Part shown: positions 6,906 through 56,977 of the stretch, in pieces
Position numbering within the stretch: position 1 is the stretch's first letter
How the letters are laid out: each line of letters opens with the position of its first letter
Virus record (IMG/VR): IMGVR_UViG_3300021185_004515
Direction: 5' to 3' (one strand)
Length of the DNA: 64,000 bases
DNA from: an uncultured virus (IMG/VR IMGVR_UViG_3300021185_004515)
Taxonomy: Duplodnaviria; Heunggongvirae; Uroviricota; Caudoviricetes
Notes under the pieces: generated by a model
What the model was told of the DNA's origin: nothing
Seen by the model: only the letters and a program-made list of their open reading frames with translations
The model's database searches: none
Position numbers and translations under genes: made by a program

Positions 6906-8264
6906 TCAACCATAGAGGTTGTCTGTGGTTTCAGTAATGCCTCGTTCCTTTTTAGACATCTTCCTTTGATTCAGCAGGATTTCCAAGGCTTGCTCCATGT
7001 GGGTCTGAAGAATTTTAGTTTTGGATTCATCAAAATCAGAATCTTCAAAAGCCAGCATGAAAGCATTTTGGACTAATTCTTGGAGGTAAGCCCCAGAAAA
7101 ATTATCCGTTCGCTTGACAATCTGTTTCAAGTTAATCTTGGCTTGGAATGGTTCTAAATACTTTTCCAAAATCTCCTTTCGGGCTTCTGGTTTAGGATAA
7201 CCGAACTCAATTCTGCTATCAAATCTTCCAGGTCGGTCAGCCAAAGCCCAATCCAAATGTTGAGGGTAGTTAGTGGTGGCTAAAGTGATAACTCCTGTGT
7301 TGCGTTCTACACCCGAAAGAGCATTCAAAAATTCTCCAAGTAGTGGGTGGTCGTGAACTTCTCGGCGGTCTAATCCTCCGAGTGTGTCAATATCCTCAAT
7401 AATAACCAGCGTGGGTGCTAAATGGCGAGCCATTTTATAGAGTCGTGTGATTTGTCCTTCTTGTTTGATAGCATCACGAGAGGCGTAAATGGTGGTAATA
7501 TTGGTATTATTCATGACCACATTACAACACAAGGTTTTTCCTGTTCCTGGTGGGCCTGAAATCAAAACACCACGAGATGCACGAAGATTTTTAGCACGAT
7601 AAACTTCCATGTGTGGAACAAAGTTAATGATGTGGCGGTTCAATAATTCTGTGGAATCATCATCTACGATAATGTCTTGCCATCCTGCGCCTGGGACATC
7701 TAAGAAACGGAAATCTGCGGTGAATTTAGAGCCTTTCAGTAGACCTTTTGTGTTGAAGTGCAGTTGAACCTTGTCCCACAATTCTGTGTAGCGGTTCCCG
7801 TATTTTGTGTTGGTTTCAAAGTAGAATTTAATGTCAATTTCATACTGGTCATACGGCCAAAAAGAAACTACCAATGGGTGTGAATCTTCTCGGTGTTGCA
7901 AAAAGAGCGAGAGTTTGTAAGGAATCTTAAATTTTTCTCCGTTGAAGACTTCTTCGTTCCAAATAGGCGGGGTTTCAGCATTTCCATACTTGTGATTCTC
8001 TACCTTAATGGTTTCATACTCATCTTCTAAAATCTGCATCAAGGAATACGCCCACATGATATATTCTCTTCCAGAATAATCTCGGTGTTTAACTTCTAAA
8101 TTGTTGATGTCTGTTTGAAAGAACTCCGAAATAGAGGCATCCATCTGGTCAGTCTTTTCAATTGAATCGCTAAGATACTGCAACATATCTTTGAGTGGTT
8201 CGGTGGGTATTGAAATAGGCCCCATTGGAGAGGCAATTTCAAGATTCGTAGGCATTGCGGTCAT
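6906..8264 (-). CDS. AAA+ ATPase, classical (CDC48/PAN/FtsH-like) clade
   Basis: Walker A GPPGTGKT, Walker B IIEDID, TTN sensor 1, SRH ALADRPGRFD, FSGA lid. Confidence 0.92.
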   Translation of the reverse strand: MTAMPTNLEIASPMGPISIPTEPLKDMLQYLSDSIEKTDQMDASISEFFQTDINNLEVKHRDYSGREYIMWAYSLMQILEDEYETIKVENHKYGNAETPPIWNEEVFNGEKFKIPYKLSLFLQHREDSHPLVVSFWPYDQYEIDIKFYFETNTKYGNRYTELWDKVQLHFNTKGLLKGSKFTADFRFLDVPGAGWQDIIVDDDSTELLNRHIINFVPHMEVYRAKNLRASRGVLISGPPGTGKTLCCNVVMNNTNITTIYASRDAIKQEGQITRLYKMARHLAPTLVIIEDIDTLGGLDRREVHDHPLLGEFLNALSGVERNTGVITLATTNYPQHLDWALADRPGRFDSRIEFGYPKPEARKEILEKYLEPFQAKINLKQIVKRTDNFSGAYLQELVQNAFMLAFEDSDFDESKTKILQTHMEQALEILLNQRKMSKKERGITETTDNLYG

Positions 8265-8294
8265 ACAGTTAAGTTATGGCATTACCTATATGAA

Positions 8295-9248
8295 TCAAAG
8301 CGCACCCAATCCCGAAGTGTTAAATACCTGTGAGTCACCGTTGGTGGTCAATAACCAATACCAATGCTCACCGTTATTGAGATAAGACTCTCCATAACGA
8401 CTTTCAAATCCTGGAAGTTGAGACACGGCTTCAGGAGATAACTGCAAAAATATCTGTTTTTGTTTTTGTTCGTGAATCGCCCTAATTAACTCTTGTTTAT
8501 TTCCTTGGTGTGCCGCAGTCTGCGTTCCTCCTGCGGTGGTTTGTTCATCGTGACAATGATAGTATCCTATCAAATCGGGCTCATAACTCAATTGATACAA
8601 ATCATCAGATTCCAGCGGATTACCTACCATTCGCATCCACAAATTAGTATCTTCGCCAAAGAACAAATCTTCCTCAAACCCACCGATGTTTTCAAATCTG
8701 GAACGACGAACCATACAAGCCGATGTCATGATGGGTCGTAGGGCTGCAAAGAAATAATCTTGTCCCCGCTCCCAGTTATTTTGAAACCGTTCCCAATCTT
8801 CGGAGGTCAGGAATCCTGCTAACCTTTCCGTTGAATAGGCTTCACCAGCGAGTCCATTTAAGGTTTTAGTAACATTCATTACGCCCCACCACAAAACTTG
8901 TTCTGGAGGGCGGGCAGGTAGGTCTAAAGAAGCCCATAACAAGCGTTCACTATACCATTTATCATCAGAATCTAAAAAGGCTAAATATGGACGAGAACCT
9001 TGAGATATGGCTTGATTTCTGGCTTGAGACACACCCTTTCCTGATTGGCGTAAAATGTGGAATTTAATTTCTGAGTCAGCAAACTCCTGATAAACGGCGT
9101 TAATGGAATCATAGCGTTCGTGGTCTTCGGGAGTGCCATCTACTACCCAGACTTCAAAATCTTTAAATTGTTGTGATTGTAAAGAAGTTAAACAAGTGCG
9201 AACCAATTCTGGTTGTGTCTTGAAAACAGGAACGATTACATCAAACAT
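8295..9248 (-). CDS. Glycosyltransferase family 2
   Basis: VIVPVF, VVDG, GVSQARN, FLDSDD, GEDT motifs. Confidence 0.9.
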   Translation of the reverse strand: MFDVIVPVFKTQPELVRTCLTSLQSQQFKDFEVWVVDGTPEDHERYDSINAVYQEFADSEIKFHILRQSGKGVSQARNQAISQGSRPYLAFLDSDDKWYSERLLWASLDLPARPPEQVLWWGVMNVTKTLNGLAGEAYSTERLAGFLTSEDWERFQNNWERGQDYFFAALRPIMTSACMVRRSRFENIGGFEEDLFFGEDTNLWMRMVGNPLESDDLYQLSYEPDLIGYYHCHDEQTTAGGTQTAAHQGNKQELIRAIHEQKQKQIFLQLSPEAVSQLPGFESRYGESYLNNGEHWYWLLTTNGDSQVFNTSGLGAL

Positions 9249-9281
9249 AATGTTTTTGGGTGTTGCCTCCTATATGAATCT

Positions 9282-10223
9282 TTACAAATTCATAATTTCC
9301 CATTCATCACGGGAGATGATGTTGAAGGTCATGCCTTGATTGAGTTGATAGCGATTGCGGGCTCCTTCATCTCGTTGAAACATTTGGAAAGTTTTTCTGT
9401 GAGAGTGAGATAAGGTATTTAAGAATTCTTCCGTTAAGTAGCAATCTCCGTGGCGGGCCACTAATAATTCCGAAACCTGACTCATAATTTCTGGGTCTTG
9501 GCTAAGATTTCCTAATTGTCCTTCCCAGTGATTTTTGATAACTAATGGACTCTCTACGGATAAACAACGAACTCGGTAGTCGGCCTTAACCCATTGAAGC
9601 ATAAGTTCGGTATCTTCTGCCAGACGAAAATCTGGGGAAAACTGGTGAGTGTCTACACATTTTCTACGACACATGAGTCCTGAAAAGTAAGCCGCTGCAC
9701 GGAACCAAAAATGCTTTTGTAATTCGGCAGGTAAAAAGTTGATGATTTCATAACACTGTAAGTGATTGTGCATAATTTTCTGCATACCAATTTCAGCAGG
9801 TATTCCCAAGCGTTGTAATTCCAACAAATGGGTAGAACTAATGCTACTTAGAATTTCTGTGACCCAAATATCGGCTTCTTCTGTTTCCAAGGCTTGTGAC
9901 ATCAAAGATAGATACAAGGGATGCCACAAATCATCAGAATCTAAGAAAGCAACCAACGGATTAGAACTGGATTCTAACAATTGATTACGGGCGGCTGCGA
10001 CACCACCTGTGCGAGTCTGTCGCTGATAATTCCAACGAGAACCGAATGATTCAGAATATTCTGCTAACAGTTGTTGATAGGAATCCCAACGAATCCAGTC
10101 TTCGGGTGTGTCATCACATATCCATAACTGAAAATCCTGTGTGGATTGATTTAGGACTGAATCTAATGTGGCTCGCAATAAGTTAAGAGGTGTGGAGCGA
10201 ATCGGCATGATAATATCAATCAT
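9282..10223 (-). CDS. Glycosyltransferase family 2
   Basis: IIMP, ICDD, GVAAARN, FLDSDD, AEDT motifs. Confidence 0.9.
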   Translation of the reverse strand: MIDIIMPIRSTPLNLLRATLDSVLNQSTQDFQLWICDDTPEDWIRWDSYQQLLAEYSESFGSRWNYQRQTRTGGVAAARNQLLESSSNPLVAFLDSDDLWHPLYLSLMSQALETEEADIWVTEILSSISSTHLLELQRLGIPAEIGMQKIMHNHLQCYEIINFLPAELQKHFWFRAAAYFSGLMCRRKCVDTHQFSPDFRLAEDTELMLQWVKADYRVRCLSVESPLVIKNHWEGQLGNLSQDPEIMSQVSELLVARHGDCYLTEEFLNTLSHSHRKTFQMFQRDEGARNRYQLNQGMTFNIISRDEWEIMNL

Positions 10224-11456: not shown

Positions 11457-11693
11457 TTACTTGCCTCCTGAGTGAATTGCTATATATCCTCCGATTGCGA
11501 CTCCAACTCCAGCCATAGCCAGAGCAGGAACAATCTGAAGCACTTGAACATTAGCGGGAACAAAGAAATATTGTCCGATTCCCCATCCAACAACGAATCC
11601 AGTTAAGGCTCCGAATTGGATTTTACGAGCGTCGGCTTCTAATCCCATGTCAGTCACATTCCTGTCGCAGAACCTTACGGCCCCCAGAATCAT
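11457..11693 (-). CDS. Small two-TM protein
   Basis: Gly-rich hydrophobic hairpin. Confidence 0.65.
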   Translation of the reverse strand: MILGAVRFCDRNVTDMGLEADARKIQFGALTGFVVGWGIGQYFFVPANVQVLQIVPALAMAGVGVAIGGYIAIHSGGK

Positions 11694-11755
11694 TGTCACG
11701 GCCTAACCGTGTCTCATCTGAGGGCTAAGGCCCACATTTCACCAGTTTAGCGAAC

Positions 11756-12406
11756 TCACATTCCTTGAGCGGAAAGGAGTGAACGCTTATACCAGTCCAC
11801 ATTTCCTGGGTTGATGGAGATACCCATTTCCAACAACTTGTTGGCGATGAGTGCATCAGGTCCGTCGTAAAGTGTGTATTTGGTGAATGCGTAGTGGTCT
11901 GCACCAGTAGCCGCTCCCCAAGAACCTGCGTTGAAAGCAGTGTAAAGGATGTCCCAAACTTGTCCTGGCAACACATATACATCAGGGTATAGGTTGAAGG
12001 AAGGCTGGAAATCAAGGGAACGAGGGTAAGGGCTTGCGCTACCTGGGATACCTTGGTTTGCAACATTGTCAGGGTCAAGGAAGTAGTCCGTGGTGTTGAT
12101 ACGAACTTGCACATAGGCACGAGGACCGAGTGTTCCGTTTCCTGGGGCGAAATCACCGAGTTGTCCTCGGTAATCTGTTGAGACAGTAGCCGCTGTTGAA
12201 GTTGCTGGCAAAGTTGGTGTGCAAGCGATGTCTTCAATGACAACGAATTCTGTGGCGGTTGTTTCTGCTGGCTTGGTAATGTTGTTACCGAATCCACCGA
12301 TAAAGATAGATACTGCTCGTCCTGCTTGCGCTGCGACGAAGTTGTTTGCGGTTACACCATTTGGCCCGAGGCCGTTCCATTCATAAATTTGACTTCTCAT
12401 ACTCAT
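11756..12406 (-). CDS. Putative major capsid protein A (single jelly-roll-like)
   Basis: Paralogue of the neighbouring gene with long identical blocks; eight alternating-hydrophobic strands incl. LYPDVYVLPGQV; C-ending codon bias suggests high expression. Confidence 0.6.
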   Translation of the reverse strand: MSMRSQIYEWNGLGPNGVTANNFVAAQAGRAVSIFIGGFGNNITKPAETTATEFVVIEDIACTPTLPATSTAATVSTDYRGQLGDFAPGNGTLGPRAYVQVRINTTDYFLDPDNVANQGIPGSASPYPRSLDFQPSFNLYPDVYVLPGQVWDILYTAFNAGSWGAATGADHYAFTKYTLYDGPDALIANKLLEMGISINPGNVDWYKRSLLSAQGM

Positions 12407-12451
12407 AATAATCACTTTCCATAGTTAGTTTTCCTCAAAGGAATTCCGAAC

Positions 12452-13108
12452 TCAGACTCCTCCGTTAGTTGGGGCCATTGCAGCACGGGTTTGTTGCTCA
12501 ATGAGGGAACGCTTATACCAATCAACATTGTTTGGATTGATGGTGACACCAAGTTCCAAAAGTTTGTTTGCGATGAGTGCATCTGGGCCATCATAAAGAG
12601 TGTATTTCACGAAAGCAGCGACAACTTGAGTAGTTGTGCCGTTCATGGCTTCGTTGATGCTGTAAAGAATCTGGAAAACTTGACCAGGAAGAACATAAAC
12701 ATCTGGGTAGAGGTCAAAAGACTTCAAGAGGTTGTCCTTGGTGTAGGTCAAAACGGTTCCTGCAACTGCAACAGAGGAAGGAGAACCACGAGGGTAAGGA
12801 CTTGCAAGACCTGGGATACCACGCTGACGGGTAACATCTGGGTTCTGGAAGTAATCAGTGGTGTTGATTCGGATTTGGACTGAGCCACCGAGCCAAGGAG
12901 AACAAGCGATGTCCTCAATAACGATAAACTGCGTTGCAGTTGTTTCGGCTGGCTTAGTGATGTTATTACCGTATCCGCCGATAAAAATATCAATTTCTTG
13001 TTGGCTTGGAACGGTAACAGGGATGTCACTTGTTGTTCTTCGTAGGCTTGAAGTTTGACCCGTAGGTGCGAGGTTACTCCATTCATATACTTGGCTTCTC
13101 ATACTCAT
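12452..13108 (-). CDS. Putative major capsid protein B (single jelly-roll-like)
   Basis: Shares MSMRSQ, GNNITKPAETTAT, VIEDIAC, RINTTDYF, KYTLYDGPDALIANKLLE, NVDWYKRSL with gene A; TATA at 13165. Confidence 0.6.
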   Translation of the reverse strand: MSMRSQVYEWSNLAPTGQTSSLRRTTSDIPVTVPSQQEIDIFIGGYGNNITKPAETTATQFIVIEDIACSPWLGGSVQIRINTTDYFQNPDVTRQRGIPGLASPYPRGSPSSVAVAGTVLTYTKDNLLKSFDLYPDVYVLPGQVFQILYSINEAMNGTTTQVVAAFVKYTLYDGPDALIANKLLELGVTINPNNVDWYKRSLIEQQTRAAMAPTNGGV

Positions 13109-31554: not shown

Positions 31555-32793
31555 CTATTTAAGATTACGAATTAAAGTCCATGCACCAGCCGAGGCCATC
31601 ACGGTTCCGACGATGGCTAACAAAGGTGTGCGTCGGGTGTTGCGATTAGACAAATCTGTGTCAGGGTCGTATTCTACTCGTGGACGAGAATCTACGGTTT
31701 CTGCCGTCCAAGAATTGGCGGCGGATGATTTCAACAATTCATCTTCAGGAGCCACATCTAAATTAGGATAAAAACTGGCTGCTTCTCGGAGGCGGTCGCG
31801 GGGTGATGGGCTCTGAGTGGGAACTGATGAAACGGTGTGTTCAGGAATCGCAGCCATATTTTCTGGGGCTGACATAGACTCTAATTGAGATAAATCAGAA
31901 ATTTCAGAGATGGACGAGGGAATTGGGTTGGCGGTTCCAGAGTGTTCACCATAATTGGCTTGAACATCAATGTTGTTTCCTTTGTGTTCTACTCGTCGGT
32001 CACCACGAATCTTATCTACCACAATATATCCTCGGTCTCGGAAAAATTCTGGGGCATAAGCCACACACTCTCCTTTGCGAGCCGCTGCAATACCATTAAG
32101 AAGTCTTTTGACTACTTTCTTATCAGTTCCGAAACTCAATTGTTCGTCCAGAGCCTTGAGGTCACGATTGTTGATAACATTGTGAACCAGATAAATTGAG
32201 GCTTGAGATAGTGCTTCCTTGTTCACACCAGCAGGTCGCTGGCTCACCAGAGTAGCACCATAACCCAAAGCACGGCCTAATTTGCATAAGCGCACGATAG
32301 GGTCAAAAGAAATTGGTCTACCCATTTGTGGAATAAAGTCTTGACACTCTTCAATTACGGTGTGAATACCTTTGCCAAGATGTGCCTCTAATAATGCTTC
32401 ACAGTAATCTGCAACTAATTCTTGTTGAGTCAATAGTGGTAATCCTGCGAGTTTGATAACCAATGATTTACTGGTTTCTCCTAATCTTTTTACCAAGGCT
32501 TTCATATCTACGGATTGTCCAATCGCAGGGGTTAAACCCTCCACTCCTTCTAAGTCAGGGAGGTTTCCGTGAGCATCCAGAGCATCAAAACAAACAAATT
32601 GTAGTCCTAAACGGTTAAACTCTTCCATCATTACCGCAGTAGTCCATGATTTACCAGACCCACGCTTTCCTGTGACAAAAAATACGGACGAGATGACGGA
32701 ATCCTCACCATATGCTGGAAGGTGTAGATGTTTTCCCAAAACAACTTGCTTCGGGTCTATGCCATTATCTTGTATAAAATTCATAACGCCCAT
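31555..32793 (-). CDS. HerA/FtsK-superfamily ATPase with C-terminal TM; candidate genome-packaging ATPase
   Basis: Walker A GKRGSGKS, Walker B VIEECQ, arginine finger KLGRALG, LVSQRP; hydrophobic C-terminus. Confidence 0.85.
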   Translation of the reverse strand: MGVMNFIQDNGIDPKQVVLGKHLHLPAYGEDSVISSVFFVTGKRGSGKSWTTAVMMEEFNRLGLQFVCFDALDAHGNLPDLEGVEGLTPAIGQSVDMKALVKRLGETSKSLVIKLAGLPLLTQQELVADYCEALLEAHLGKGIHTVIEECQDFIPQMGRPISFDPIVRLCKLGRALGYGATLVSQRPAGVNKEALSQASIYLVHNVINNRDLKALDEQLSFGTDKKVVKRLLNGIAAARKGECVAYAPEFFRDRGYIVVDKIRGDRRVEHKGNNIDVQANYGEHSGTANPIPSSISEISDLSQLESMSAPENMAAIPEHTVSSVPTQSPSPRDRLREAASFYPNLDVAPEDELLKSSAANSWTAETVDSRPRVEYDPDTDLSNRNTRRTPLLAIVGTVMASAGAWTLIRNLK

Positions 32794-32841: not shown

Positions 32842-34026
32842 TCAGTTATAATCTCCATCTGGGTGGGTTAATCGCACTAATGCGGCAAATGTCCCTGCTA
32901 ATGAAATCATTCCGTCTCCTCGGTCTGGAGCCAACATAACTGCTTTGAAGAATTGTCCCATATCGGGACCCGTATGAGGCCACACAGGTAATCCTGAAAT
33001 AACAACACTGCTGGGTCTTACGGCCATCGGGAGGTCTATTCCAGCGGCTTTTGAATAACCTACTTCGGCTTGCAACCTCATGGTTCCTGGGAAATAAGTC
33101 CATTCTCCTTTGGCAAGAGTTCCTCGGTAACTACCTGAATCGTAATCTTCTCCTCCGCCTGTGTTTCGCATGACTCCACCAAAATAAGGGATAATCTGGT
33201 CTTCTCTATTTTGTGAACCGACTCCCACATAAAAAACTGGGCCATAAGAACGCATATATTGGTCTAAGGGAACATTGTTTTCAAATTCTAAGGTTGCCCA
33301 ATGCTGACGATACCAATCGTAACAAGTATCACTAAAACAAATTGACACCGCCCTGTCTATCTTTACTCTATCTCCATCTTCAGTGGGAATTCCTCCTTTC
33401 ATACCATCACAAGCAATTTGACATCCTGATGAATGCAGGGCTTGTCCTGAAGGAACAAACGCTTGAGAATTACTTCCTAACAAAAATTCTAATGCGCCAT
33501 CATAGTCATTAGATGGTCCAGGCCAATCCACATGACCTACTTCATTAAAGGAGTAGAGGGCGAAATGAGATTTAGATGATTTACATTGAGCCACCACAAT
33601 TGCTGCTAAGGCACGAGCCAAATCACATTTCAAAAGTGTAGTTCCATTGTAAGTTCCTGCCACTTGATTCATTCCTTCGCTGCGGTCCATAATCAATTGC
33701 ACGAAAGTATTATAACTGGTATCTCCTGTGACGGCAGGAGACATAGCCGTAGCCTGTGCTTCTCCTGAGCCAATCGCAATAGCGGGATTTGGGCCTGTGG
33801 TAGATTCAATTAACTCTCCTTGAGATTGACCCATAACATAAACATTTTGTCCCTCTGGTGCTTCTGAACCCTTGAATGTCAAAACCTTGACGAAATCGGC
33901 CATACCTGCAAAAAAGGCAGCCGCAGGATTTTGGAATTCTACCATTTGAGGGTCATTGGTAGGAATCTGCGACTGTCTGGTAAATACATAGGGGTTATCG
34001 TCTGCTCCGCCTGTTTGTCCACTCAT
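32842..34026 (-). CDS. vWA-domain-like protein
   Basis: LIMDRSEGM degenerate MIDAS, ICFSD strand; paralogue of next gene. Confidence 0.7.
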   Translation of the reverse strand: MSGQTGGADDNPYVFTRQSQIPTNDPQMVEFQNPAAAFFAGMADFVKVLTFKGSEAPEGQNVYVMGQSQGELIESTTGPNPAIAIGSGEAQATAMSPAVTGDTSYNTFVQLIMDRSEGMNQVAGTYNGTTLLKCDLARALAAIVVAQCKSSKSHFALYSFNEVGHVDWPGPSNDYDGALEFLLGSNSQAFVPSGQALHSSGCQIACDGMKGGIPTEDGDRVKIDRAVSICFSDTCYDWYRQHWATLEFENNVPLDQYMRSYGPVFYVGVGSQNREDQIIPYFGGVMRNTGGGEDYDSGSYRGTLAKGEWTYFPGTMRLQAEVGYSKAAGIDLPMAVRPSSVVISGLPVWPHTGPDMGQFFKAVMLAPDRGDGMISLAGTFAALVRLTHPDGDYN

Positions 34027-34035
34027 AATATCACC

Positions 34036-35304
34036 TTACTCATAATCTCCGTCAGGATGAGTCATGCAAACTAAATCTGCAAATGTTCCTGCTAATGTTA
34101 TCATCCCGTCTGCTCGGTCAGGAGCCAACATAACACATTTGAAAAATGATTCCATATCTACTCCTTCGTGCGGCCAAGTTGCTGGCAGTTCATTACCATC
34201 GTCGTGGCTTCTCTCCGTGGTAATGTTAATTCCATTAGCCCGACTCCAACAAACTTCGGCAGCCAATCGCATAGTTCCTGGGAAATAAACCCACTCTCCT
34301 GCTCTTCCCATAGGGTCATAGGGCAAACGGTGTGCCTCTTGCTCATAGGCGTGGGGGCGATAATCATTATACAATGAGTCTTGTTCCTGAGTCCGACCTC
34401 CACCTGTGTTTCGCATGACCCCTCCAAAATAAGGAATAATCTGGTCTTCACGACCTCCGCCCGAAGGAGATACTCCGACATAATAAACAGGACCTTTAGT
34501 TCGCATATACTGGTCTAATGGAACATTGTTGTTAAATTCTAACGAATCCCAATGTTGCATCGGCCAGTTATAACATTGATTAGAAAATACAATTGAAACG
34601 GCACGGTCTATATTCAAACTATTGCCTTCTAAATCAAATCCTGAGAACATATAATCGCAAGCAGTTTGACAACCAGAACCTGGTTCGTGTCCTGCTGCCA
34701 CCTCACCGTTCAGGCTTCGGACCTCGGGAACAAACGCTTGAGAATTACTTCCTAACAAAAATTCTATGGCTCCGTCGTAATCTTGAGAAGGACCAGGCCA
34801 ATCCACATATCCTGTCCAACTATATGAGAACAGACAAAAATGTGATTTAGTAGCACGGCACTGTTCTACGGCAATAGCGGCTAATGCTCTTCCTAAATCC
34901 CAGAGAAGTAGGGTTTGTCCGTTGAAAGTTCCTGCCACATTGTCCATTCCTACGCTTCGGTCCATGATAATTGATACCAAAGTATTGTATTCTTCAGTTT
35001 GAGTCGGTATAATCATAGACGAACGAGCCTGTGCTTCACGAGCCGCAATAGCCAAACCTGGATTCGGTCCCGCAGTATCTTCTTTGAACTCTCCTTGTGA
35101 TTGACCCATAATATATGTGGAGGTGCCTGTTTGTGTCATCGCAGGTCGGGTTTTCATAACTCGCACAAAATCTGCCATTCCGTCAAAGAATGCAGCCGCA
35201 GGATTTTTAAAGTTTATCATTTCTGGGTCGCCCATATTCCGACGGCCAATCTGTTCGGTAAAAACATATGGGTTATCGTCTGTGCCGCCTGTTTGTCCAC
35301 TCAT
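34036..35304 (-). CDS. vWA-domain-like protein
   Basis: IIMDRSVGM degenerate MIDAS; long identical blocks with the 32842 gene. Confidence 0.7.
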   Translation of the reverse strand: MSGQTGGTDDNPYVFTEQIGRRNMGDPEMINFKNPAAAFFDGMADFVRVMKTRPAMTQTGTSTYIMGQSQGEFKEDTAGPNPGLAIAAREAQARSSMIIPTQTEEYNTLVSIIMDRSVGMDNVAGTFNGQTLLLWDLGRALAAIAVEQCRATKSHFCLFSYSWTGYVDWPGPSQDYDGAIEFLLGSNSQAFVPEVRSLNGEVAAGHEPGSGCQTACDYMFSGFDLEGNSLNIDRAVSIVFSNQCYNWPMQHWDSLEFNNNVPLDQYMRTKGPVYYVGVSPSGGGREDQIIPYFGGVMRNTGGGRTQEQDSLYNDYRPHAYEQEAHRLPYDPMGRAGEWVYFPGTMRLAAEVCWSRANGINITTERSHDDGNELPATWPHEGVDMESFFKCVMLAPDRADGMITLAGTFADLVCMTHPDGDYE

Positions 35305-35313
35305 CTTATCGCC

Positions 35314-38300
35314 TCAGTATCGGTAATCTCCACCTTCAACAAGTTCGGCTCTGAATCTTAATGCCCACTTCCACCATCCCGCAGGAATGGTAACTTCTCT
35401 GGTTCGGCCACCTTCTTCGGCAACTGAATCAGTTCCTGGTTCGGTTTCCCATGCCACAGCACCCTCAAAATATCCTTGTGATAATCCACTGGTTCGGGAA
35501 GGCAACAGTTGTAAATCTCCAGCAGGTGATATTAGATTGTCAAGAGATTGTAATTGACCTGTGTTGATATAGTGCTGAATAGCAGCATATCCTGGATAAT
35601 ATCTTCCTGTTTGCAGGGCTTCTAACAGTGTGCTTGCTTCTCCCCGAGCAGCAGCGGCCTGTCCTACTTGAGAAATGGCTTCACATTCTCGGCAAAGATA
35701 ATAGCGAACTGCGATTCCTTGTTGTGGGACTTCTGATGTTTCCATCAATTGAATACGGTGCGAACCCTGAATAATAGCACTGTTGCCTCCAGGCGCACGA
35801 GCAGACAAGATAGCCGCTAAACCACCATTGGCTCTTCCTGTCCAATCTTGAACTAATTGATTGGCAGGGATTTCTCTATCATTGATGTGACAGTAATCAT
35901 ATCCTGTTTCACTTTGAATCGCATAATTAGAAGGAATATTGTTGTCCATCATGTATTGCAACGAATCATTCATTGGAACTCCTGTTAATCCAGGTCCAGA
36001 CCAATTTACGCTTCCTGATTCCAGAACTCCTGTGACATCGGGGAATTGGGTCCATCGTGGAGTTTTATTGCCTCGTTGGTCGGTGACCATAGGAGAAATA
36101 TCAATCCATCGGCCCTGAATGAGAGAGAAGTATGCTTCCGCAGACTTGCCTTCAGTAACGGCAAAGGTATAATTGTTAGGGGCTCCTGCACAACAACTCA
36201 TAGACCCTTCTGCTCCCACAGCGGTCAGAGGATTTTTAACTATTTCGGCTACTCTTGGTGCGGTAAAAATGGTAATTTGTGTGGGTCTGCCTGTGGCTGC
36301 ATCTAAATTTCCTGCGGCTCGGACAATGGGATTAGAAATAGTAATGGCTCCTCCCGTAATTGCTACGGCTTGAGTTCCCACAGGTATTCCATCTGCATTA
36401 AGGTAATCTCCAACAGCAATTTTTTCGGGATTGCTAACTACCAGTGTGGTATCTCCTTCATTGTATTCGGCTGTGATTAGAGTTTGATTTTCGTTGAGGG
36501 ATGCGGCAGAAGGAACAGGTGCAGCGGTGGTGCTGTTGTTAATAATCCATTCTGCTTCGTATGTTAGTGGGCCTTGTCTTTCGTTAGGGCAAGTAAATCC
36601 TTCAATATTCCTATCTGAAACGGGTTGTGGTGGTTGCGGTGTGAACTCAGTTGGGATGACATCGCCCATATAGACTTGCGGGAGTTCCAAACGGAGATTG
36701 TATCTTTCCTGCGAGTCTACTTGCGATTTCAACACTAAACTCCATTGAGGTCGGTCCGCAAATGCTTGTGCTATCATGGCTCCGTTAGGCAAAATACCCA
36801 CTGAATCTTCTGCGGTAAGTGGCTGCCGATTCATAATGGTGTATGGCATAGGAGGCATAATAAAATTCTGTGGGTGAGGTTCAATAAATTTAGCGTCACC
36901 ATTAACTCCACAAGTGGGGCAATAATCCATAGCCTGTCCTCGGCCATCAATCAAGGGTTGGTAATTTGTCACTTCTCGGGCATTTGAACCAGGATATTGC
37001 CATCCAACATTTTTATGGTCTGGATTTTTACAAACTGCCATTACTGACCGAACGAAAGCATACCGACACATAGAGAGTGCGAATGATGCAGGGAAGGCAT
37101 TCTTTTGACGAAGTGTTTGCAATTGCTTAATTGCCTCATGTGCTGCGGTCGCATCCCTAACAGCAACAGTGCCAAACTCTGCATAAACCGCTCGGATGGC
37201 ATCATCTTGGACAGCACCACGAGCATAAGTAGCGTAATCAGAAGACCGACCACTTCCTGATTCCATGCCTCTAAAACCGCCTGTTCTTCCTAATTGACGA
37301 GTAGTGCGAGCCATGCCCTCTTCCTGTGCCGCTTGTATTCTGTTGTAGATTGTGAGTTGTTCATCTGATAATGCTTTGATTTTGAGCATAGGTTCAAAAA
37401 CTCCTCCACAGAGACAACCAAAAGTTCCATCCAATCCTGCATAACTTCGCTGAACATCTCCTATGTTTTTACATAATCCTCCGTGTTGGTCGCCCTGATA
37501 CTGAGATTGACTAAAGTAGGTTTTACGAGGATAAATATCAAAGTTAGTTTCAAAGTTCTCATTTACGGGAGCAAACCTTTCAATTCCGCAAGAATTACAG
37601 ACATAGGCATTAGGTCGTGAGTTATTTCGGTCTTTAGTAGAGGTATATCCCAATTGAAGATAAGGAATATATTTCAAACATTCGGCTTGAGTGGTGAGGT
37701 AGGTGTTTTCAGGAGGCAAACCTTGATAATAAATACGATAAAATGCTTGGGAAGAGGCAGAATCCTCTACAAACTTGGAGTTATTGATAATACCTACCAT
37801 GTTAGGAGGCATTTCCGAATTTGCTCCTCTAATCGGTGCGCCATTGACGAACTGTGATGTTGTTTCTGTGTTGCTATCACGATGTCTCTGTCCTGTGGTC
37901 CAATAATCTCGGAGTGGGTGGTTGGTATTAACCTTGAAAATAGCATAACTTTCTGTTCCACAACCTCCGACACTTTTAGGTGTGCTGGAATTACAATAGG
38001 GGCTGGGACATCTGCCCGAGCCTCTCCAAGTGGTTCCACATCCTCCATTTTCTGGGTCGCAAGTTTTAACTTGATTGCATTTAACTCGTCCCACAACTAC
38101 TTGAAATCTTTTTCCACGGTATGTTGGGTCGTGTAGATTTCGTTGCCATCGCTCTAATCCGACTGACGAGCCCCAATTAGCAGGGTTGTTGTAAAGTCCA
38201 AAATCTGTGAACTCCCACCACCACAAGAAATCTCTTCGGCCACAACCTCGTGTTTTAGAAGCATCAGGTCCGCTGGCACCACCACCAGTTCTTCCTGCCT

Positions 38301-38580
38301 CTCCAAATGCTACGGGATTACAAACAAAAATACCTGAATCTCCTGCATTACTGGTCTGAACATGGGTATTTCCTGTGAGGAATCGTCGCATCATCATTAC
38401 AATTCGGGGTGCATTAGACTTGAAATTGCTAACTATTTCCGACATCTGTGTATTTTCGGTTGCCAAACGATTAGAAGAGTTCCTTCGGGAACCAGGATTT
38501 TTAAGATAAATTAAATCATAAATATCTCGTAAAATTCGGACACCGACTGGTCTGTTAATTGGATTATCTCTGTATCCCAT
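35314..38580 (-). CDS. Large multi-CxxC hypothetical protein
   Basis: 1088-aa ORF with several zinc-ribbon-like Cys pairs. Confidence 0.8.
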   Translation of the reverse strand: MGYRDNPINRPVGVRILRDIYDLIYLKNPGSRRNSSNRLATENTQMSEIVSNFKSNAPRIVMMMRRFLTGNTHVQTSNAGDSGIFVCNPVAFGEAGRTGGGASGPDASKTRGCGRRDFLWWWEFTDFGLYNNPANWGSSVGLERWQRNLHDPTYRGKRFQVVVGRVKCNQVKTCDPENGGCGTTWRGSGRCPSPYCNSSTPKSVGGCGTESYAIFKVNTNHPLRDYWTTGQRHRDSNTETTSQFVNGAPIRGANSEMPPNMVGIINNSKFVEDSASSQAFYRIYYQGLPPENTYLTTQAECLKYIPYLQLGYTSTKDRNNSRPNAYVCNSCGIERFAPVNENFETNFDIYPRKTYFSQSQYQGDQHGGLCKNIGDVQRSYAGLDGTFGCLCGGVFEPMLKIKALSDEQLTIYNRIQAAQEEGMARTTRQLGRTGGFRGMESGSGRSSDYATYARGAVQDDAIRAVYAEFGTVAVRDATAAHEAIKQLQTLRQKNAFPASFALSMCRYAFVRSVMAVCKNPDHKNVGWQYPGSNAREVTNYQPLIDGRGQAMDYCPTCGVNGDAKFIEPHPQNFIMPPMPYTIMNRQPLTAEDSVGILPNGAMIAQAFADRPQWSLVLKSQVDSQERYNLRLELPQVYMGDVIPTEFTPQPPQPVSDRNIEGFTCPNERQGPLTYEAEWIINNSTTAAPVPSAASLNENQTLITAEYNEGDTTLVVSNPEKIAVGDYLNADGIPVGTQAVAITGGAITISNPIVRAAGNLDAATGRPTQITIFTAPRVAEIVKNPLTAVGAEGSMSCCAGAPNNYTFAVTEGKSAEAYFSLIQGRWIDISPMVTDQRGNKTPRWTQFPDVTGVLESGSVNWSGPGLTGVPMNDSLQYMMDNNIPSNYAIQSETGYDYCHINDREIPANQLVQDWTGRANGGLAAILSARAPGGNSAIIQGSHRIQLMETSEVPQQGIAVRYYLCRECEAISQVGQAAAARGEASTLLEALQTGRYYPGYAAIQHYINTGQLQSLDNLISPAGDLQLLPSRTSGLSQGYFEGAVAWETEPGTDSVAEEGGRTREVTIPAGWWKWALRFRAELVEGGDYRY

Positions 38581-38584
38581 AATA

Positions 38585-39898
38585 TCACCGTGCCAAATCC
38601 TCGTTTATGCCTACTCCGCCAGCCTCAAGTGTGGAGGCATGAAGTGTGTAACTAACATCTTGTAACCACTGGTAAGCCGCTTCGTCACCTTTCCTTCCAG
38701 CATATCCTTCTGGACGGGTGGAATAGTTAGCCGCCCATTCCATCACCAATAAAAATCTAACTTCAAAACCATTGCGTTGGTTTGCCTCGTCCATCAACCC
38801 ACGATAATTAAACCAATAGCCATAGGTTTGTTTAGCGGGAAGTCCTGTGTCGGGACATATTTCTCTACAATATCTGGCAGGAATCCACTTTCCACCTATT
38901 CGGTAAGCCATAATTGGTTCAAATCCATCAAAACTGGTGCGATTATCATAGGTCATTGCGGCTTCCACAATTTGAATTCCTGGGGTGAAAGTTCCTTCTA
39001 TCTCAGTAGGTGTAGAGCAGATTTCACACACACCTGCGGTGGTTTGGAATCCTTGATATTGCTTACAGGAGTCGCAATATTGGCTGGTAATTCGGCTGGC
39101 TACTTCTACGGAGAGCCAGTTATTTGGGAATGGTTGTCCTGTATCTGGATTGTCGTTTTGAATGCACCAACTAACAGGAGGGTAAATCTGAGGTCCTCGG
39201 CCATAACCCATCAATTGTTGAAAAAGTGGGGTCTCCGCAGTAGCGATAGTAGCATTTCCTGACTCTCCAGGATTGAAATCTCCTTGAATTAGTCCTGTTG
39301 ATGCAGGAGGTATGTAGCGATTGTCCTCCACAGGTTGTCCATAAGAATTTTGTCCATTCTGTAAAACTCGTGCTAATGCTTGTCTTCCTGCTTCATCTGA
39401 GTAAGGGGTTCCGCAGATACGGAAAAAACTGTCGGCAAAATGTCCATAACTCAAAGTTTTTATCATCTCTCTTCCAAATGCCGTATCTTCAATAAAATTG
39501 TTGCCTCGGCTGACATTGAAATTGACGATAATATCTGAAATCACATTGCTCCAATCAAATTGTTCGTGAGCATCCACAGGAAGGTCTCTGACTTCGGCTT
39601 TCCAATCTGAAACTCGGCCTGGGTGAACGGTAATGTGTCCTATCTCGTGCGCTACTGTGAAAGCAACTCCCGCCGCAATATATTCGCTGGGGAATCCATG
39701 ATAATTCTGGGGTAGTGTCCATGAAACATAGTTCTGACCTAATGAAATCATTTTCATATCCGTAGCAGCACCATGCTGGTCGCTTCTTTTAATATCTACG
39801 GGCGTGTTGGTAGTTCCTGTCAAAGCCCGAAGGTTGGTGAGCAACTCTTGAACATTTTCCCCCAAATGGTAATCTCCATCTCGGAATACTTCGTCCAT
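38585..39898 (-). CDS. HExxH zinc metallopeptidase-like protein (DUF2201 N-terminal type)
   Basis: VAHEIGH followed by WSNVISDIIVN; next to MoxR AAA and vWA genes; TATA at 39921. Confidence 0.75.
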   Translation of the reverse strand: MDEVFRDGDYHLGENVQELLTNLRALTGTTNTPVDIKRSDQHGAATDMKMISLGQNYVSWTLPQNYHGFPSEYIAAGVAFTVAHEIGHITVHPGRVSDWKAEVRDLPVDAHEQFDWSNVISDIIVNFNVSRGNNFIEDTAFGREMIKTLSYGHFADSFFRICGTPYSDEAGRQALARVLQNGQNSYGQPVEDNRYIPPASTGLIQGDFNPGESGNATIATAETPLFQQLMGYGRGPQIYPPVSWCIQNDNPDTGQPFPNNWLSVEVASRITSQYCDSCKQYQGFQTTAGVCEICSTPTEIEGTFTPGIQIVEAAMTYDNRTSFDGFEPIMAYRIGGKWIPARYCREICPDTGLPAKQTYGYWFNYRGLMDEANQRNGFEVRFLLVMEWAANYSTRPEGYAGRKGDEAAYQWLQDVSYTLHASTLEAGGVGINEDLAR

Positions 39899-39935
39899 GA
39901 ATATAATTGGGTCTTGCTGCTATTTAAAAGTTGTC

Positions 39936-42900
39936 TTAACGACGACGAGGTTGTAGAGCATCTCCAAGAATTCCTAAATATTCTTGACGGTCGGATTTAG
40001 TAATATTTCCTGAATCTCCAAGTCCATTCTGACCAACTGAGTTAGATGAATAACATCGTGGGTCATTTATTGGCAAAAAGTTAATAGTTCCTGTGATTTC
40101 TCCTGGAGTATTGACAATTGCGGCTCCTTCCATTGGATTGTATTGACCAAAGTTGGAGGTCACTGATGCTGACAAAATAAATGTCATGTATTCATTATTT
40201 TCCAAAGGTTCTCCCGAGCCCGCTTCTCCTGCGGGAACGGAGCGAAGGCAAACCCACAATCTCAAGAAATCGTTCTCATCGTCTGCCCACATATTGATGT
40301 TGTTATCACGAACCAAAGAACGGGCTGGACGAGTGACTTCACGAGTATCGCCAGCAAAGCCTACTTCTTGGGTAATATCTCCTGAGATAAAATCGCTTAG
40401 TTCAGAGTGAGGTAGTTGGAAACAAGCCATCAAAGATGCGTCTGCCTGTCCCCAATCAATACTTTCATTTTGACCTGCCATAGTAAATACTCGGGAGCCG
40501 TTGTAAGAAGGGTTTTCTTCATCAAGTTTGATTAACTCCGAGCATACTTGCATAAATTGTGAAAACGAAACCTCAACATTGCCGCTTTGAGAGCCCGCAT
40601 CAAAAATCCATCGTCCATTATCAGAAGAGATTTTAGCACTCATTTTGTTAGTAAATGCAGTTAATGAGGTGTGGAATCGGCCATAATCTGGCGAATCTCC
40701 TCCTAAAATACCATCCTTAATACGGCCAATCAATTTAACTTGTTGATTGCTGAGTGCGATGTGTGCTGAATCATTAGCATAATGGCTGGAAGTGATGCTA
40801 AGTCCTGACAGACGCTTGCCAACACCTGACATTATGGCAGACATATCGGACTTGCTGTTAGTGACAGCGGCCCATGCCCCGAGTGTATCTCCGTAAGTTG
40901 GTAGGGTCAAGTTGGCATTAGCACCCATATTAGCAAGATTAGTTCCTACCGCAGCGGTATTGATTTCGGAATTGAAATATGCAGCCTTTCCTCCACTGAG
41001 TCCAGCGGCGTAAATGGAAATCTCTTCGTCACATAGTCCGAGCAAACGAGCCTTATCGTCTGTGAACAAATTACCATTATTAGCAATTGCATATCGGGTA
41101 GCATACATATCATTCAAACAAGACTCGCCCATGTTTCCAGAAACTGGGTTGCTGATTCGCTGCATAAAGTCTTCATACATTTCTGGGTAACCTTGAGTAT
41201 TGTTTTCTCCATACGACCGAAGTGTGGTGTTGCCCATTCGTTCTGACTCAGAAACCATGGTAGCAATATGCCAGTGAACTGGGGTGATTGAAGTTGATAA
41301 GTTAGCATTTCCAATCATTTGGTCTTGCATAACCTTGAGAACTGCGGTTTCATATTCGTGAGCGTAGTCTGAAGATTGCAAAATACTGACACATCGTTCA
41401 TAGAAGGAATCCAACATCTCCAAAAGTGAAGCACCGCTTCCTTGTCCAATATCTACATCACGGTTGATATATCCACGAACCAAGAATTCCCGAAGGAAGT
41501 CCTGTTCGGAGTTATAAGCCAAATCTTTTGACATAGCCTTGCCAATACCCTTGGTGTTTCCATTAACATCTGTCAAACCTTCTTTGCTACGACCGATACG
41601 GTGGGCCACAGTATATGGGATGGCATCTACAATGTCTTCACGAGATACATACGACTTTCCACGAAGGAAGGCGAATGATTTAGCCAACTTGATAATAGAA
41701 TTGGTGAAACGGAATCCAAGAACACGAGTGAAAATCGCGGGTAATTGGGCAGAGACATCGTTTCCTCTGAGTGGGTCAGCAGTAGACATTTGCGGTTGGT
41801 TTCCAGCGAATGCCATAGTTCCTTGGCTTAAAACAGCGGCTTCAGTTCCATCGTTTCCACTGGAGGTGTTAGTAGTGGTGGAGAAATCAACCAATGGGGC
41901 TTCGTGAGGATTAGAAATCCAAGAATATTGTTTGTTATTGCCCACAGGTAAGATATGTTCACGAGTTCGGTAGGCTTGAGAGAACAAAACTGAGATAGCC
42001 GAAACATCACGGTAACCATCATATGAGCCACCATTTTGAACCATAGAAATTCCTGTGGCATCGTCTTCAATCATGCTCCAAATATCTCGGATTTCATAGA
42101 ATCGCAATGGAGCCATAGCGTTAGACATGGTGAGATTCTTAATCAATTGTTCCACTGGTCGTCCTGCACGATTACTCAAAATGTTATATCGTCCACCCAT
42201 AGATACAGACTTGAACAGAATTTCCATGTCAATTCGGTCAGTAAATGCCAAATCGTTTCCTTTTTGGTGAGGGTTGGTATCCATCCAAGCCACAAAGTTA
42301 GGCGAGTCAAACTCTTTTCCACGGTATTCTACCTTTCGCTCGGCAATCAGTCCCAAAATTGCGTCTTCCATTCCAGGTTTAGAACGGTTGGCTTCGTTAA
42401 AGAACTTAACTGGTTGGGTAACAATCGGGCGAGGAACTGGTTCAAAGTCAAAAGTATTAACATTGGCTCCCTTAGCAGGGTCAAAAGATTGGGTTTCACG
42501 AATTTCCATACCATAGAGAACTTCGTCGGCTCGCTTTTCAAAGTCTACCTTAGCAATACCAATTTCTCCCAGCATTTCTGAAGAGAGAGATTTCCACTGC
42601 AAAGAACCTGGAGTGGCACGAGCGTCAAAACAAGTGTGGTGCAAAAACTCTCGCAACCAATATCCTTCGTTACGACCTGCATCGGTCCACATTCCTGATA
42701 ATCCTGATTGTGCAATATATTGTTGCACGACGGAACGACCTGATGCTTGAGTATTGGCAGCCATGTGTGATGAAATGTCATCAAACAAAGAACGAACTGC
42801 TATGCCATTCATTTCTGGGTGAGCCAACTTCATAATCAAATCTTCTGTGCCTTCGGTTCCAGAAGATAACATGACTTGATTAGGGAACAACACAGAGGTT

Positions 42901-51800: not shown

Positions 51801-51944
51801 CTAATCGTTTTCGCTATTTAAGTTTTGCGAAACAAACCTGGTGATTACAGGATTACGGATGGCAATAAACCACCAAACAAAATAGAGGCTTGCTAATGAT
51901 AATGTGGTTAGCCAAGCCAAAATAAACCAAATAATTAGTTCCAA
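51801..51944 (-). CDS. 47-aa single-TM protein (not in ORF track)
   Basis: TTG start after GGAGTGA; ELIIWFILAWLTTLSLASLYFVWWFIAIR; directly downstream of the ArsA/GET3 gene. Confidence 0.55.
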   Translation of the reverse strand: MELIIWFILAWLTTLSLASLYFVWWFIAIRNPVITRFVSQNLNSEND

Positions 51945-56494: not shown

Positions 56495-56977
56495 TTAACT
56501 GGTGGCTGTCCATGATATTCTCGCACCTGTGGGAAAATTCTCAATTGGCTCTACCAAAGCATTAGCGATAAAATAGGTAATATCCCAATCAGTTCCTGGT
56601 GGAATTTCTATTTGCCAACCTGTGGGGTCCATCGGTTGGTCGCTCAAACTGATGGAATAAGGTGCGGCAGTTCCTGATAATCCGACACCTGGGCGGCCAT
56701 CTGGGTCCAAGAAATATGATGTGGTGCCGACAACAAAATTGACATAACCTCCTGGGACCCAATCGTTTCCAATCCCAAATAATCCTGGGGTGGAGCCAAA
56801 GTATTGTAACACGACGAATTCAGTGGCTTTGGTGCGGAGACGGTTCTTGATAGTGGCAGTTCCGATTTTAGAATAAAAGACTGATTGTGGGGTTTTCTCT
56901 AAATCTTCTAATTGTTTAGGAGGGATGTTTCCTAAATCTGCGACTTCCCACTGAAACCCTTGTCTGCGGATAGCCAT
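56495..56977 (-). CDS. Distant paralogue of the capsid protein beta-barrel (minor capsid/penton candidate)
   Basis: TKATEFVV, TTSYFLDPD, GLSGTAAPY, PPGTDWDITY align with capsid protein A. Confidence 0.7.
   Translation of the reverse strand: MAIRRQGFQWEVADLGNIPPKQLEDLEKTPQSVFYSKIGTATIKNRLRTKATEFVVLQYFGSTPGLFGIGNDWVPGGYVNFVVGTTSYFLDPDGRPGVGLSGTAAPYSISLSDQPMDPTGWQIEIPPGTDWDITYFIANALVEPIENFPTGARISWTATS

What the first reader, a model, noticed from the sequence alone, without database searches (positions are those of the whole stretch)
11756..13108. Tandem paralogous capsid-protein candidates point to an unusually large single-jelly-roll virus
Seen: two adjacent ~217-aa paralogues with identical core blocks and insertions confined to different loops, an eight-strand pattern plus helical tail, identical 5-prime context (GTGATTATTATGAGTATGAGAAG) and the same TGAGTTCG at both stops. 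No HK97, terminase, portal or tail genes appear in 64 kb. Known: Halopanivirales (SH1, HHIV-2, P23-77) use two single jelly-roll MCPs, an FtsK/HerA-type packaging ATPase and an internal membrane, with genomes of roughly 30 kb or less. Inference: this is a much larger relative or a new lineage.
Basis: partly seen in the sequence, partly recalled or inferred. Interest (0 to 1): 0.85.

Follow-up and report, generated by a model that had tools for sequence, protein, structure and literature searches.

The report
Paired jelly-roll capsid genes, archaeal virus
Two neighbouring sister genes encode jelly-roll proteins that most likely form the shell of a very large, apparently undescribed tail-less virus of ocean archaea, whose relatives are about 160 kb long and carry their own archaeal-type DNA polymerase.

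Summary
Observation confirmed. Genes A (12452-13108) and B (11756-12406) encode 218- and 216-aa paralogues, 64% identical. The AlphaFold model of A (pLDDT 89) is a single jelly roll with a two-helix tail. Its best solved match is the portoglobovirus SPV1 capsid protein (Z 8.8-9.2; next 6.0-6.7), not the Halopanivirales MCPs (Z 4.9). The A-then-B order holds in 81 of 86 related loci, and A and B form separate clades. Four related records (123-166 kb; two with inverted terminal repeats) carry more paralogues. These four and a related MAG contig carry a HerA-type ATPase and archaeal PolD, with no terminase, HK97 capsid or portal match. The one genome annotated in full also has TBP, TFB and PCNA. 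A third, split paralogue lies in the window at 53.6-57.0 kb. Best reading: paired major capsid proteins of a large tailless virus of marine archaea (0.72). PolD was seen in relatives, not in this window. Nine literature searches found no description of the group; Borgs are a partial precedent. This scan noted the same family before on other DNA.

The parts
12452..13108 (-). Capsid protein candidate A (218 aa): single jelly roll, residues about 3-173, plus two C-terminal helices
   Evidence: AlphaFold pLDDT 88.9, pTM 0.79; best solved match SPV1 6oj0, Z 8.8 and 9.2, rmsd 2.9-3.0, 128 residues aligned
11756..12406 (-). Capsid protein candidate B (216 aa), paralogue of A with a 29-aa insertion in another loop
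   Evidence: 64% identical to A; own clade, 100/100 support; fold inferred from A, not modelled separately
12407..12451 (-). A-B spacer with a short hairpin and a GTGA ribosome-binding-type signal
   Evidence: Sequence; spacer is -4 to +46 nt in relatives, often a TAATG/TGATG stop-start overlap
11672..11722 (-). Conserved RNA structure just 3' of B: stem with a 3-by-6 GA/GA internal loop (kink-turn-like) followed by a GNRA-type hairpin
   Evidence: Fold z -2.38; 17 pairs, 95.6% of cells paired, 3 pairs with changes on both sides in 8 distinct close relatives; no Rfam match; kink-turn label from recalled consensus
56495..56977 (-). Third paralogue, N-terminal part (160 aa): matches A residues 1-156, lacks the last strand and the helices
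   Evidence: blastp E 1.5e-12 to B; hhalign probability 99.8, E 8e-30; folded alone only pLDDT 44
53617..56457 (-). 946-aa protein whose residues about 758-814 match the last strand and helical tail of A/B; complements the 160-aa gene; vertex or spike candidate
   Evidence: blastp E 1e-7 to A; a matching split pair in 4 of 4 virus records
31555..32793 (-). HerA/FtsK-type ATPase with a C-terminal hydrophobic segment; genome-packaging candidate
   Evidence: PDB matches are HerA/DUF87 proteins, E 9e-9 to 0.04; Pfam DUF87 E 4e-4, below cut-off; one orthologue in 5 of 5 related records
32842..44225 (-). MoxR-like AAA ATPase (39936-44225), HEXXH protein (38585-39898), cysteine-rich protein (35314-38580) and two vWA-like paralogues (32842-35304): assembly-chaperone candidate
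   Evidence: Pfam AAA_lid_2 E 9.5e-7 and AAA_3 E 0.004; the two paralogues are 58% identical; HEXXH and vWA labels read from the sequence by recalled motifs
6906..10223 (-). Two family-2 glycosyltransferases and an AAA ATPase downstream of the pair
   Evidence: Pfam; at least one glycosyltransferase plus the AAA gene follows the pair in 4 of 4 virus loci

Best explanation
A and B are the two major capsid proteins of a large (about 160-170 kb, linear, inverted-repeat-ended) tailless dsDNA virus of marine archaea. One SPV1-like single-jelly-roll gene duplicated once, early in this lineage. The two copies are co-expressed from one operon in near-equal amounts (inferred) and stand side by side in six-membered capsomers, most likely alternating (inferred, about 0.55). 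The conserved core and helical tail make the lattice and inner contacts; the variable loop insertions form the outer surface. More distant paralogues, including the split 160-aa + 946-aa pair, fill vertex and minor positions (inferred). A HerA/FtsK-type ATPase packages the genome into a membrane-lined shell (inferred by analogy). Shown here: paralogy, predicted fold, gene order, clades, gene content of relatives. Not shown: particles, membrane, oligomer type, host lineage.
For: Confident jelly-roll model whose best match in three PDB searches is the SPV1 capsid protein. Its Z of 8.8-9.2 exceeds the 7.5 that links SPV1 VP4 to P23-77 VP17 in PMC8812541 (different aligner). Highly conserved, widespread family: 1,734 clusters, 76 of 177 core columns invariant across A and B of 31 genomes. 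A-then-B tandem in 81 of 86 loci; some lineages duplicate the pair as a unit (A-B-A-B) and many couple stop to start. A and B are separate clades with 13 diagnostic columns. 22 long homologues carry extra domains inserted in loops of one core. HerA-type ATPase and PolD DP2 each in 5 of 5 related records; no terminase, HK97 capsid or portal in those 5. One genome has TBP, TFB, PCNA, DP1, primase and FEN1. Inverted terminal repeats of 3.46 kb (99.4%) and 99 bp. Contigs from RNA libraries of 4 of 4 runs laid (4 studies) cover both genes.
Against: Z 8.8-9.2 is only just above the 7-8 that models without a clear match typically reach in this search (note). Foldseek alone gave no PDB match at E <= 0.001 (best 2.7e-3), and jelly rolls are also common in spikes, cement and cellular proteins. 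Matches to the paired MCPs of HCIV-1 and P23-77 are weak (Z 4.9). One locus (L058) has B with room upstream but no A. In Borgs, consecutive jelly-roll paralogues scored better as homo- than as hetero-hexamers (10.1101/2024.11.05.622173). CheckV rates the four virus records 53-65% complete, so a missed capsid gene is not excluded. The replication genes come from relatives 59-77% identical in A, not from this window's own contig. The host is unresolved: binned copies sit in bacterial and euryarchaeal MAGs, and the only organism-named TBP hit is a Thorarchaeota MAG at 56%.
Confidence: 0.72

Rival explanations
1. A and B are capsid proteins but do not alternate. Each builds its own homo-oligomer: two kinds of hexamer, or one the hexamers and the other the pentamers, as SPV1 VP4 and VP10 do.
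For: SPV1 uses VP4 hexamers and VP10 pentamers (PMC8459092), and SPV1 is the closest fold. Borg paralogues were predicted as homohexamers. L058 has B without A. At 64% identity, homomeric contacts are likely kept.
Against: Fixed A-B order in 81 of 86 loci, stop-start coupling, and duplication of the pair as a unit suit a 1:1 need better than a hexon:penton ratio. Other, more divergent paralogues are available for vertices.
Confidence: 0.13
2. The element is not an icosahedral virus. It is a plasmid-like or Borg-like linear replicon, or an enveloped or pleomorphic virus, and A and B are surface-array or spike proteins.
For: No particle evidence here; the run table shows no size fraction. It has a cell-like replication kit. 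18 of 71 window ORFs have a predicted membrane segment (crude scan). Jelly rolls of spore appendages, nucleoplasmin and CUB domains score Z 5-6.
Against: The best match stands 2-3 Z units above these and is a capsid protein. There is a conserved packaging-type ATPase, a 64-kb one-strand structural module (97% coding), and extreme conservation of A and B.
Confidence: 0.1
3. A and B are cement, decoration or tail proteins of a very divergent tailed virus whose HK97 capsid and terminase escaped the profiles.
For: The ATPase hits a PHROG labelled terminase large subunit. Weak fold hits include Pam1 cement and tail-fibre domains (Z 5.0). Known Poseidoniales viruses are all tailed (PMC11706807, PMC13108676).
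Against: 0 of 5 records match Terminase_6N, Phage_capsid or Phage_portal, while these rang in 5, 4 and 4 of 14 control genomes. The ATPase has HerA motifs and HerA PDB matches. The only tail-labelled hit among 113 G001 proteins scanned in PHROGs is one weak fibre match (E 2.7e-4).
Confidence: 0.05

Closest known systems
Portogloboviridae: Sulfolobus polyhedral virus 1, capsid proteins VP4/VP10 (PDB 6oj0)
   Same: Best structural match (Z 8.8 and 9.2, rmsd about 3, 128 residues, 13% identity). Second hit is XepA (Z 6.7), as reported for SPV1 VP4 itself (PMC8812541). Archaeal host; paralogous single jelly rolls.
   Different: SPV1 has a 20-kb circular genome, no polymerase (PMC8459092), no packaging ATPase (PMC8812541), homo-hexamers and a Sulfolobales host. 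Here: 160-166 kb linear genomes, PolD, a HerA-type ATPase, up to four full and one split paralogue, marine habitat.
Helvetiavirae / Singelaviria (Halopanivirales: HCIV-1, HHIV-2, SH1, P23-77)
   Same: Two adjacent single-jelly-roll capsid genes plus an FtsK-HerA ATPase (PMC8812541, PMC12714852); tailless architecture; linear genome as in HCIV-1.
   Different: Weak structural match to their MCPs (HCIV-1 6h9c_Z Z 4.9, P23-77 3zn6_A Z 4.9; HHIV-2 6h82_b, a 135-residue chain, Z 5.7). A and B are still about 62% identical, so the duplication looks younger and separate (inference). Own replication and transcription-factor genes.
Borgs and mini-Borgs (Methanoperedens extrachromosomal elements)
   Same: Large linear archaeal elements with inverted terminal repeats and several consecutive single-jelly-roll capsid-like genes (10.1101/2024.11.05.622173, passages).
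   Different: Borgs use PolB, reach 1.1 Mb, live in soil methanotrophs, and their capsid-like proteins resemble HCIV-1 VP7; packaging ATPases were confidently found only in some mini-Borgs and one Borg. I made no direct sequence comparison with Borg proteins.
Magrovirales and Satyavativiridae (described viruses of Poseidoniales)
   Same: Marine archaeal viruses, possibly of the same hosts.
   Different: They are tailed Caudoviricetes of about 87-100 kb with MCP, portal and terminase, and PolB or no polymerase (PMC11706807, PMC13108676). None of the three hallmark families tested was found here.

Membership tests
Helvetiavirae (Singelaviria; Halopanivirales) | Two major capsid protein genes, each a single jelly roll | tested here: met
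   Model of A; B by 64% identity; pair kept in 81 of 86 loci. 'Major' is inferred.
Helvetiavirae (Singelaviria; Halopanivirales) | FtsK-HerA superfamily packaging ATPase | tested here: met
   HerA-type sequence matches, present in 5 of 5 records; packaging role inferred.
Helvetiavirae (Singelaviria; Halopanivirales) | MCPs structurally of the VP4/VP7 or VP16/VP17 type | tested here: inconclusive
   Z 4.9 to 6h9c_Z and 3zn6_A, within the background of jelly rolls and well below SPV1.
Helvetiavirae (Singelaviria; Halopanivirales) | Heterodimer-based pseudo-hexameric capsomers with vertical barrels | not tested
Helvetiavirae (Singelaviria; Halopanivirales) | Internal lipid membrane | not testable with these tools
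   Only indirect: 18 of 71 window ORFs with a hydrophobic segment; G001 shows 16 of 73 in the structural region and 19 of 115 in the arms.
Halopanivirales (described families) | Genome of about 30 kb or less (figure recalled) | tested here: not met
   Repeat-bounded relatives of 160,342 and 166,176 bp.
Portogloboviridae | VP4/VP10-like single-jelly-roll capsid proteins | tested here: met
   Top match in three PDB searches, Z 8.8-9.2; moderate strength.
Portogloboviridae | Circular genome of about 20 kb, no DNA polymerase, no packaging ATPase | tested here: not met
   Linear 160-166 kb, PolD and HerA-type ATPase in 5 of 5 records against PMC8459092 and PMC8812541.
Portogloboviridae | VP1 nucleoprotein filament core | not tested
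   No search for a VP1 homologue was made.
Caudoviricetes (Magrovirales, Adrikavirales) | HK97 capsid protein, terminase large subunit, portal | tested here: not met
   0 of 5 records for each of PF05065, PF03237, PF04860; none in Pfam/PHROGs scans of window and G001 proteins apart from the HerA-type ATPase's PHROG label. Very divergent forms could escape profiles.
Bamfordvirae / Abadenavirae (double-jelly-roll viruses) | [quoted passage not shown] | tested here: not met
   One barrel in 218 aa; 0 of 22 homologues of 275 aa or more hold two full copies of the profile.
Borgs | PolB, Methanoperedens host, up to megabase genome | tested here: inconclusive
   Relatives carry PolD and are 123-166 kb and marine; no direct comparison with Borg proteins was made.

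The most novel reading that the evidence does not exclude
This is a new high-rank lineage of large tailless viruses of marine archaea. It repeated the origin of the two-capsid-protein design independently from an SPV1-like ancestor (gene duplication plus capture of a HerA ATPase), scaled a single-jelly-roll shell to about T 80-130 with up to six paralogous lattice proteins, and replicates with its own PolD, PCNA, primase and helicase, while supplying TBP and TFB. I found no report of PolD in a virus.
Probability: 0.5. Interest if true: 0.92.

Novelty: new variant of a known kind. Interest (0 to 1): 0.8.

Why it matters
Described viruses with paired single-jelly-roll capsids are small and mostly come from hot or hypersaline habitats, and the described viruses of marine Poseidoniales are tailed. 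An abundant 160-kb tailless lineage would extend the young realm Singelaviria, or add a sister group, into the open ocean. Because A and B are still about 62% identical and the fold is SPV1-like, the pair makes the published scenario (a portoglobovirus-like ancestor duplicating its capsid gene and gaining an ATPase) directly testable at an early stage of divergence. It also poses the question of how single jelly rolls build a very large shell. A virus with PolD would fill a gap in the known viral polymerase repertoire: no DP2 match among 50,697 GenBank phage records.

Tried and rejected
No whole genome is held for the window, so the window's own contig could not be checked for PolD or HK97 genes; five metagenome records of closer relatives were also not held. 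Complex prediction of A with B was not available, so no score exists either way. The 160-aa paralogue folded alone at pLDDT 44: uninformative, not searched further. Pfam, PHROGs and PDB sequence searches gave nothing for A or B; no match in 50,697 phage records. ESM Atlas pointed to PM2 P2 domains at 0.76-0.78, below the level that chance reaches; lead only. BFVD gave 4 matches at E <= 0.001, none informative. Fusion to a double jelly roll: rejected, 0 of 22 long homologues. Recent duplication or wholesale gene conversion: rejected; 26 of 56 four-fold sites agree (17.7 expected), and A-B identity within a genome (61.7%) equals that between genomes (61.1%); a small excess of shared four-fold codons within genomes (0.43 against 0.37) could be codon bias or patchy conversion. 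The shared 5' and stop motifs as a special signal: not kept in relatives. Host assignment by TBP homologues failed; the three GTDB genomes with hits are bacterial MAGs, read as mis-binning; two tRNA calls in 18 loci were not followed. Contig depth in RNA runs is highest over the pair in all four runs (for example 161-243 against 21-26 in X15), but the tool states that contig depth cannot rank genes, so I do not count it. Satyavativiridae and Charybdis elements were read up and are not this group. The first tree with distant paralogues was unresolved.

Full report
Observation. The window is a one-strand, 97% coding block of 78 called ORFs. Genes A (12452-13108) and B (11756-12406) lie 45 nt apart and encode 218 and 216 residues, 118 of them identical, 64% over aligned columns. 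The insertions sit in different loops. The shared 23-nt start context and the TGAGTTCG at both stops are real. They are explained mostly by shared first codons and a ribosome-binding-type GTGA motif (12 of 61 ORFs against 12 of 406 controls), and they are not kept in relatives. Neither protein matches Pfam, PHROGs, PDB sequences or 50,697 GenBank phage records.

Fold. With a 119-sequence alignment, AlphaFold models A at pLDDT 88.9 and pTM 0.79: a beta-sandwich over residues 3-173, with six core strands of 3 or more residues and two irregular ones, then helices 175-185 and 192-211. The best solved match in all three PDB searches is the SPV1 capsid entry 6oj0: Z 8.8 among 48,161 representatives (next XepA 6.7), Z 9.2, rmsd 3.0, 128 aligned in the second look (next 6.0), and Foldseek rank 1 at E 2.7e-3. 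The matched 178-residue chain fits VP4 by length (181 aa). Halopanivirales chains score lower: HHIV-2 6h82_b 5.7, HCIV-1 6h9c_Z 4.9, P23-77 3zn6_A 4.9. The tool warns that Z 7-8 is common by chance of arrangement, so the SPV1 link is moderate, not proof. For scale, PMC8812541 (passages) gives Z 7.5 between SPV1 VP4 and P23-77 VP17, with XepA second. B was not modelled separately.

Family. There are 1,734 clusters at 90% identity and 296 representatives at 50%, on contigs up to 190 kb and one of 322 kb whose nature I did not check. In 86 loci (4 IMG/VR, 3 GTDB MAG, 79 metagenome loci from the best 80 of 521 matches, many near-copies), A precedes B in 81; 4 are cut by contig ends and 1 (L058) has B without A. 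Spacers run from -4 to +46 nt, often as stop-start overlaps, and one lineage has A-B-A-B. In 31 genomes chosen by hand from these, core identity is 82% A-A, 77% B-B and 62% A-B whether within or between genomes; 76 of 177 core columns are invariant and 13 separate A from B. A and B form two clades (100/100 on 36 rows). The duplication is thus old within the family and each copy has its own role. Of 22 homologues of 275 aa or more, none is a double jelly roll; most carry extra domains inserted in loops of one core, as outward turrets would.

More paralogues. The 160-aa gene (56495-56977) matches A residues 1-156 (hhalign 99.8%), and the next gene (946 aa, 53617-56457) supplies a match to the last strand and helices at residues 758-814. 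A matching split pair occurs in 4 of 4 virus records, and each record also has one or two further full-length paralogues; in three of the four they lie 12-16 kb downstream of B, at or beyond this window's left end. Whether the two halves really complement is untested: the 160-aa protein alone folded poorly.

Genome context. About 41 of the 78 window ORFs are best hits of G001 proteins, largely in the same order (hand count). G001 (160,342 bp) and G004 (166,176 bp) end in inverted repeats of 99 bp and 3.46 kb; CheckV rates the four records 53-65% complete. Pfam on 102 G001 proteins finds PolD DP2 and a DP1-type subunit, PCNA, an MCM-like ATPase, primase, FEN1, XPF, ligase, class II RNR, TBP and TFIIB. 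DP2 is in 5 of 5 records, the HerA-type ATPase in 5 of 5, and Terminase_6N, Phage_capsid and Phage_portal in 0 of 5, while the same searches rang in 5, 4 and 4 of 14 controls. Against this, the ATPase also hits a PHROG labelled terminase. These genes are from relatives; the window's own contig was not available. The stretch is held by 20 listed runs of 19 studies, all marine, seawater or estuary; 17 runs of 16 studies after removing 3 possible sources. RNA-library contigs of 4 of 4 runs laid cover both genes. The host is an archaeon by gene content; the lineage is unresolved, with Poseidoniales only a guess from habitat and one 'Euryarchaeota' MAG label.

Mechanism. I commit to A and B being the paired major capsid proteins (0.72). 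The fixed order, translational coupling and duplication as a unit suggest a 1:1 need, as in the VP7-VP4 heterodimers of HCIV-1 and HHIV-2 (PMC6414509, passages). The rival is separate homo-oligomers as in SPV1 (PMC8459092, whole text) or as predicted for Borg paralogues (10.1101/2024.11.05.622173, passages). The helical tail probably faces inward to scaffold or membrane proteins (inference).

Comparison and novelty. It works like a Helvetiavirae virus (two single jelly rolls plus an FtsK-HerA ATPase; PMC12714852 and PMC10848233, passages) but fails membership of the described families on size and gene content, and its fold points to SPV1. It is not a portoglobovirus (genome, polymerase, ATPase), not a tailed Poseidoniales virus (PMC13108676 whole text, PMC11706807 passages) and not a Charybdis element (passages). 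Borgs are a real precedent for very large linear archaeal elements with several jelly-roll capsid-like genes, which is why I do not score it categorically new. PMC11348598 (passages) lists family B polymerases for archaeal viruses and A, B, C for tailed viruses. Nine searches of the open library showed no paper on this group; subscription journals are not covered. Six earlier notes of this scan describe the same family on other DNA. I had the fold, PolD and split-gene results before reading them and do not count them as support.

Verdict. Observation confirmed; interpretation supported with a changed closest relative. Novelty: new variant of a known kind, probably a new high-rank lineage. Interest 0.8.

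Noticed in passing
window 11672-11722 (-), and 3' of gene B in related loci: Structured non-coding RNA right after the capsid pair: a kink-turn-like stem plus a GNRA-type hairpin. A GCC-GNRA-GGC-type hairpin occurs in 36 of 60 distinct downstream regions (shuffles: mean 0.15; pattern chosen after viewing them) and a kink-turn-like pattern in 18 of 60 (shuffles: mean 7.2, max 11). Possibly an L7Ae-binding or stabilising 3' element of the capsid mRNA. No Rfam match.
   Followed up: partly
window-wide, mainly 1-32000 (-): The motif [F/Y]xAE occurs 31 times in window proteins against 8.2 in shuffles (max 17 of 500; motif chosen after viewing), often repeatedly in acidic, low-complexity proteins. 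It may mark cleavage sites of a viral maturation protease.
   Followed up: partly
L011:3193-3999 (G001): 268-aa protein with an HxH...S..D pattern that recalls JAB/MPN metalloproteases (motif recalled, no family hit), conserved in G004 at 70%; candidate for the processing protease.
   Followed up: no
window 32842-44225 (-): MoxR-like AAA ATPase, HEXXH protein, large cysteine-rich protein and two vWA-like paralogues next to the HerA-type ATPase; looks like an assembly-chaperone module.
   Followed up: partly
window 51935-53122 (-): ArsA/Get3-family ATPase (Pfam E 1e-57), kept in G001 and G004; many window proteins end or begin with one membrane segment, so it may insert viral tail-anchored membrane proteins.
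   Followed up: no
L039-L061 (for example L041, L052, L053): One lineage has duplicated the capsid pair as a unit (A-B-A2-B2), with longer B2 proteins of 267-290 aa.
   Followed up: partly
L003:9291-13419: Five paralogues in one run: A, B, a 215-aa N-terminal part, a 431-aa protein with the C-terminal part, and another full copy.
   Followed up: partly
L058:1338-1970: B-type gene directly behind the upstream neighbours with no A gene; real loss or assembly collapse at the shared start sequence.
   Followed up: no
L023, L024, L025 (GTDB genomes): Contigs of this virus family (one of 136 kb, in a genome that also holds PolD DP2) sit in MAGs labelled Rickettsiales and Acidiferrobacteraceae; probably mis-binned.
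   Followed up: partly
window 63448-63972 (-): Aspartate-rich repeat protein (TSP3-like calcium-binding repeats by the Pfam hit of its G001 orthologue).
   Followed up: no
L012:8617-11278 (G001): Three tandem C5 cytosine methyltransferase genes; also UvdE, pyrimidine-dimer and Fpg glycosylases, suggesting a sunlit habitat.
   Followed up: no
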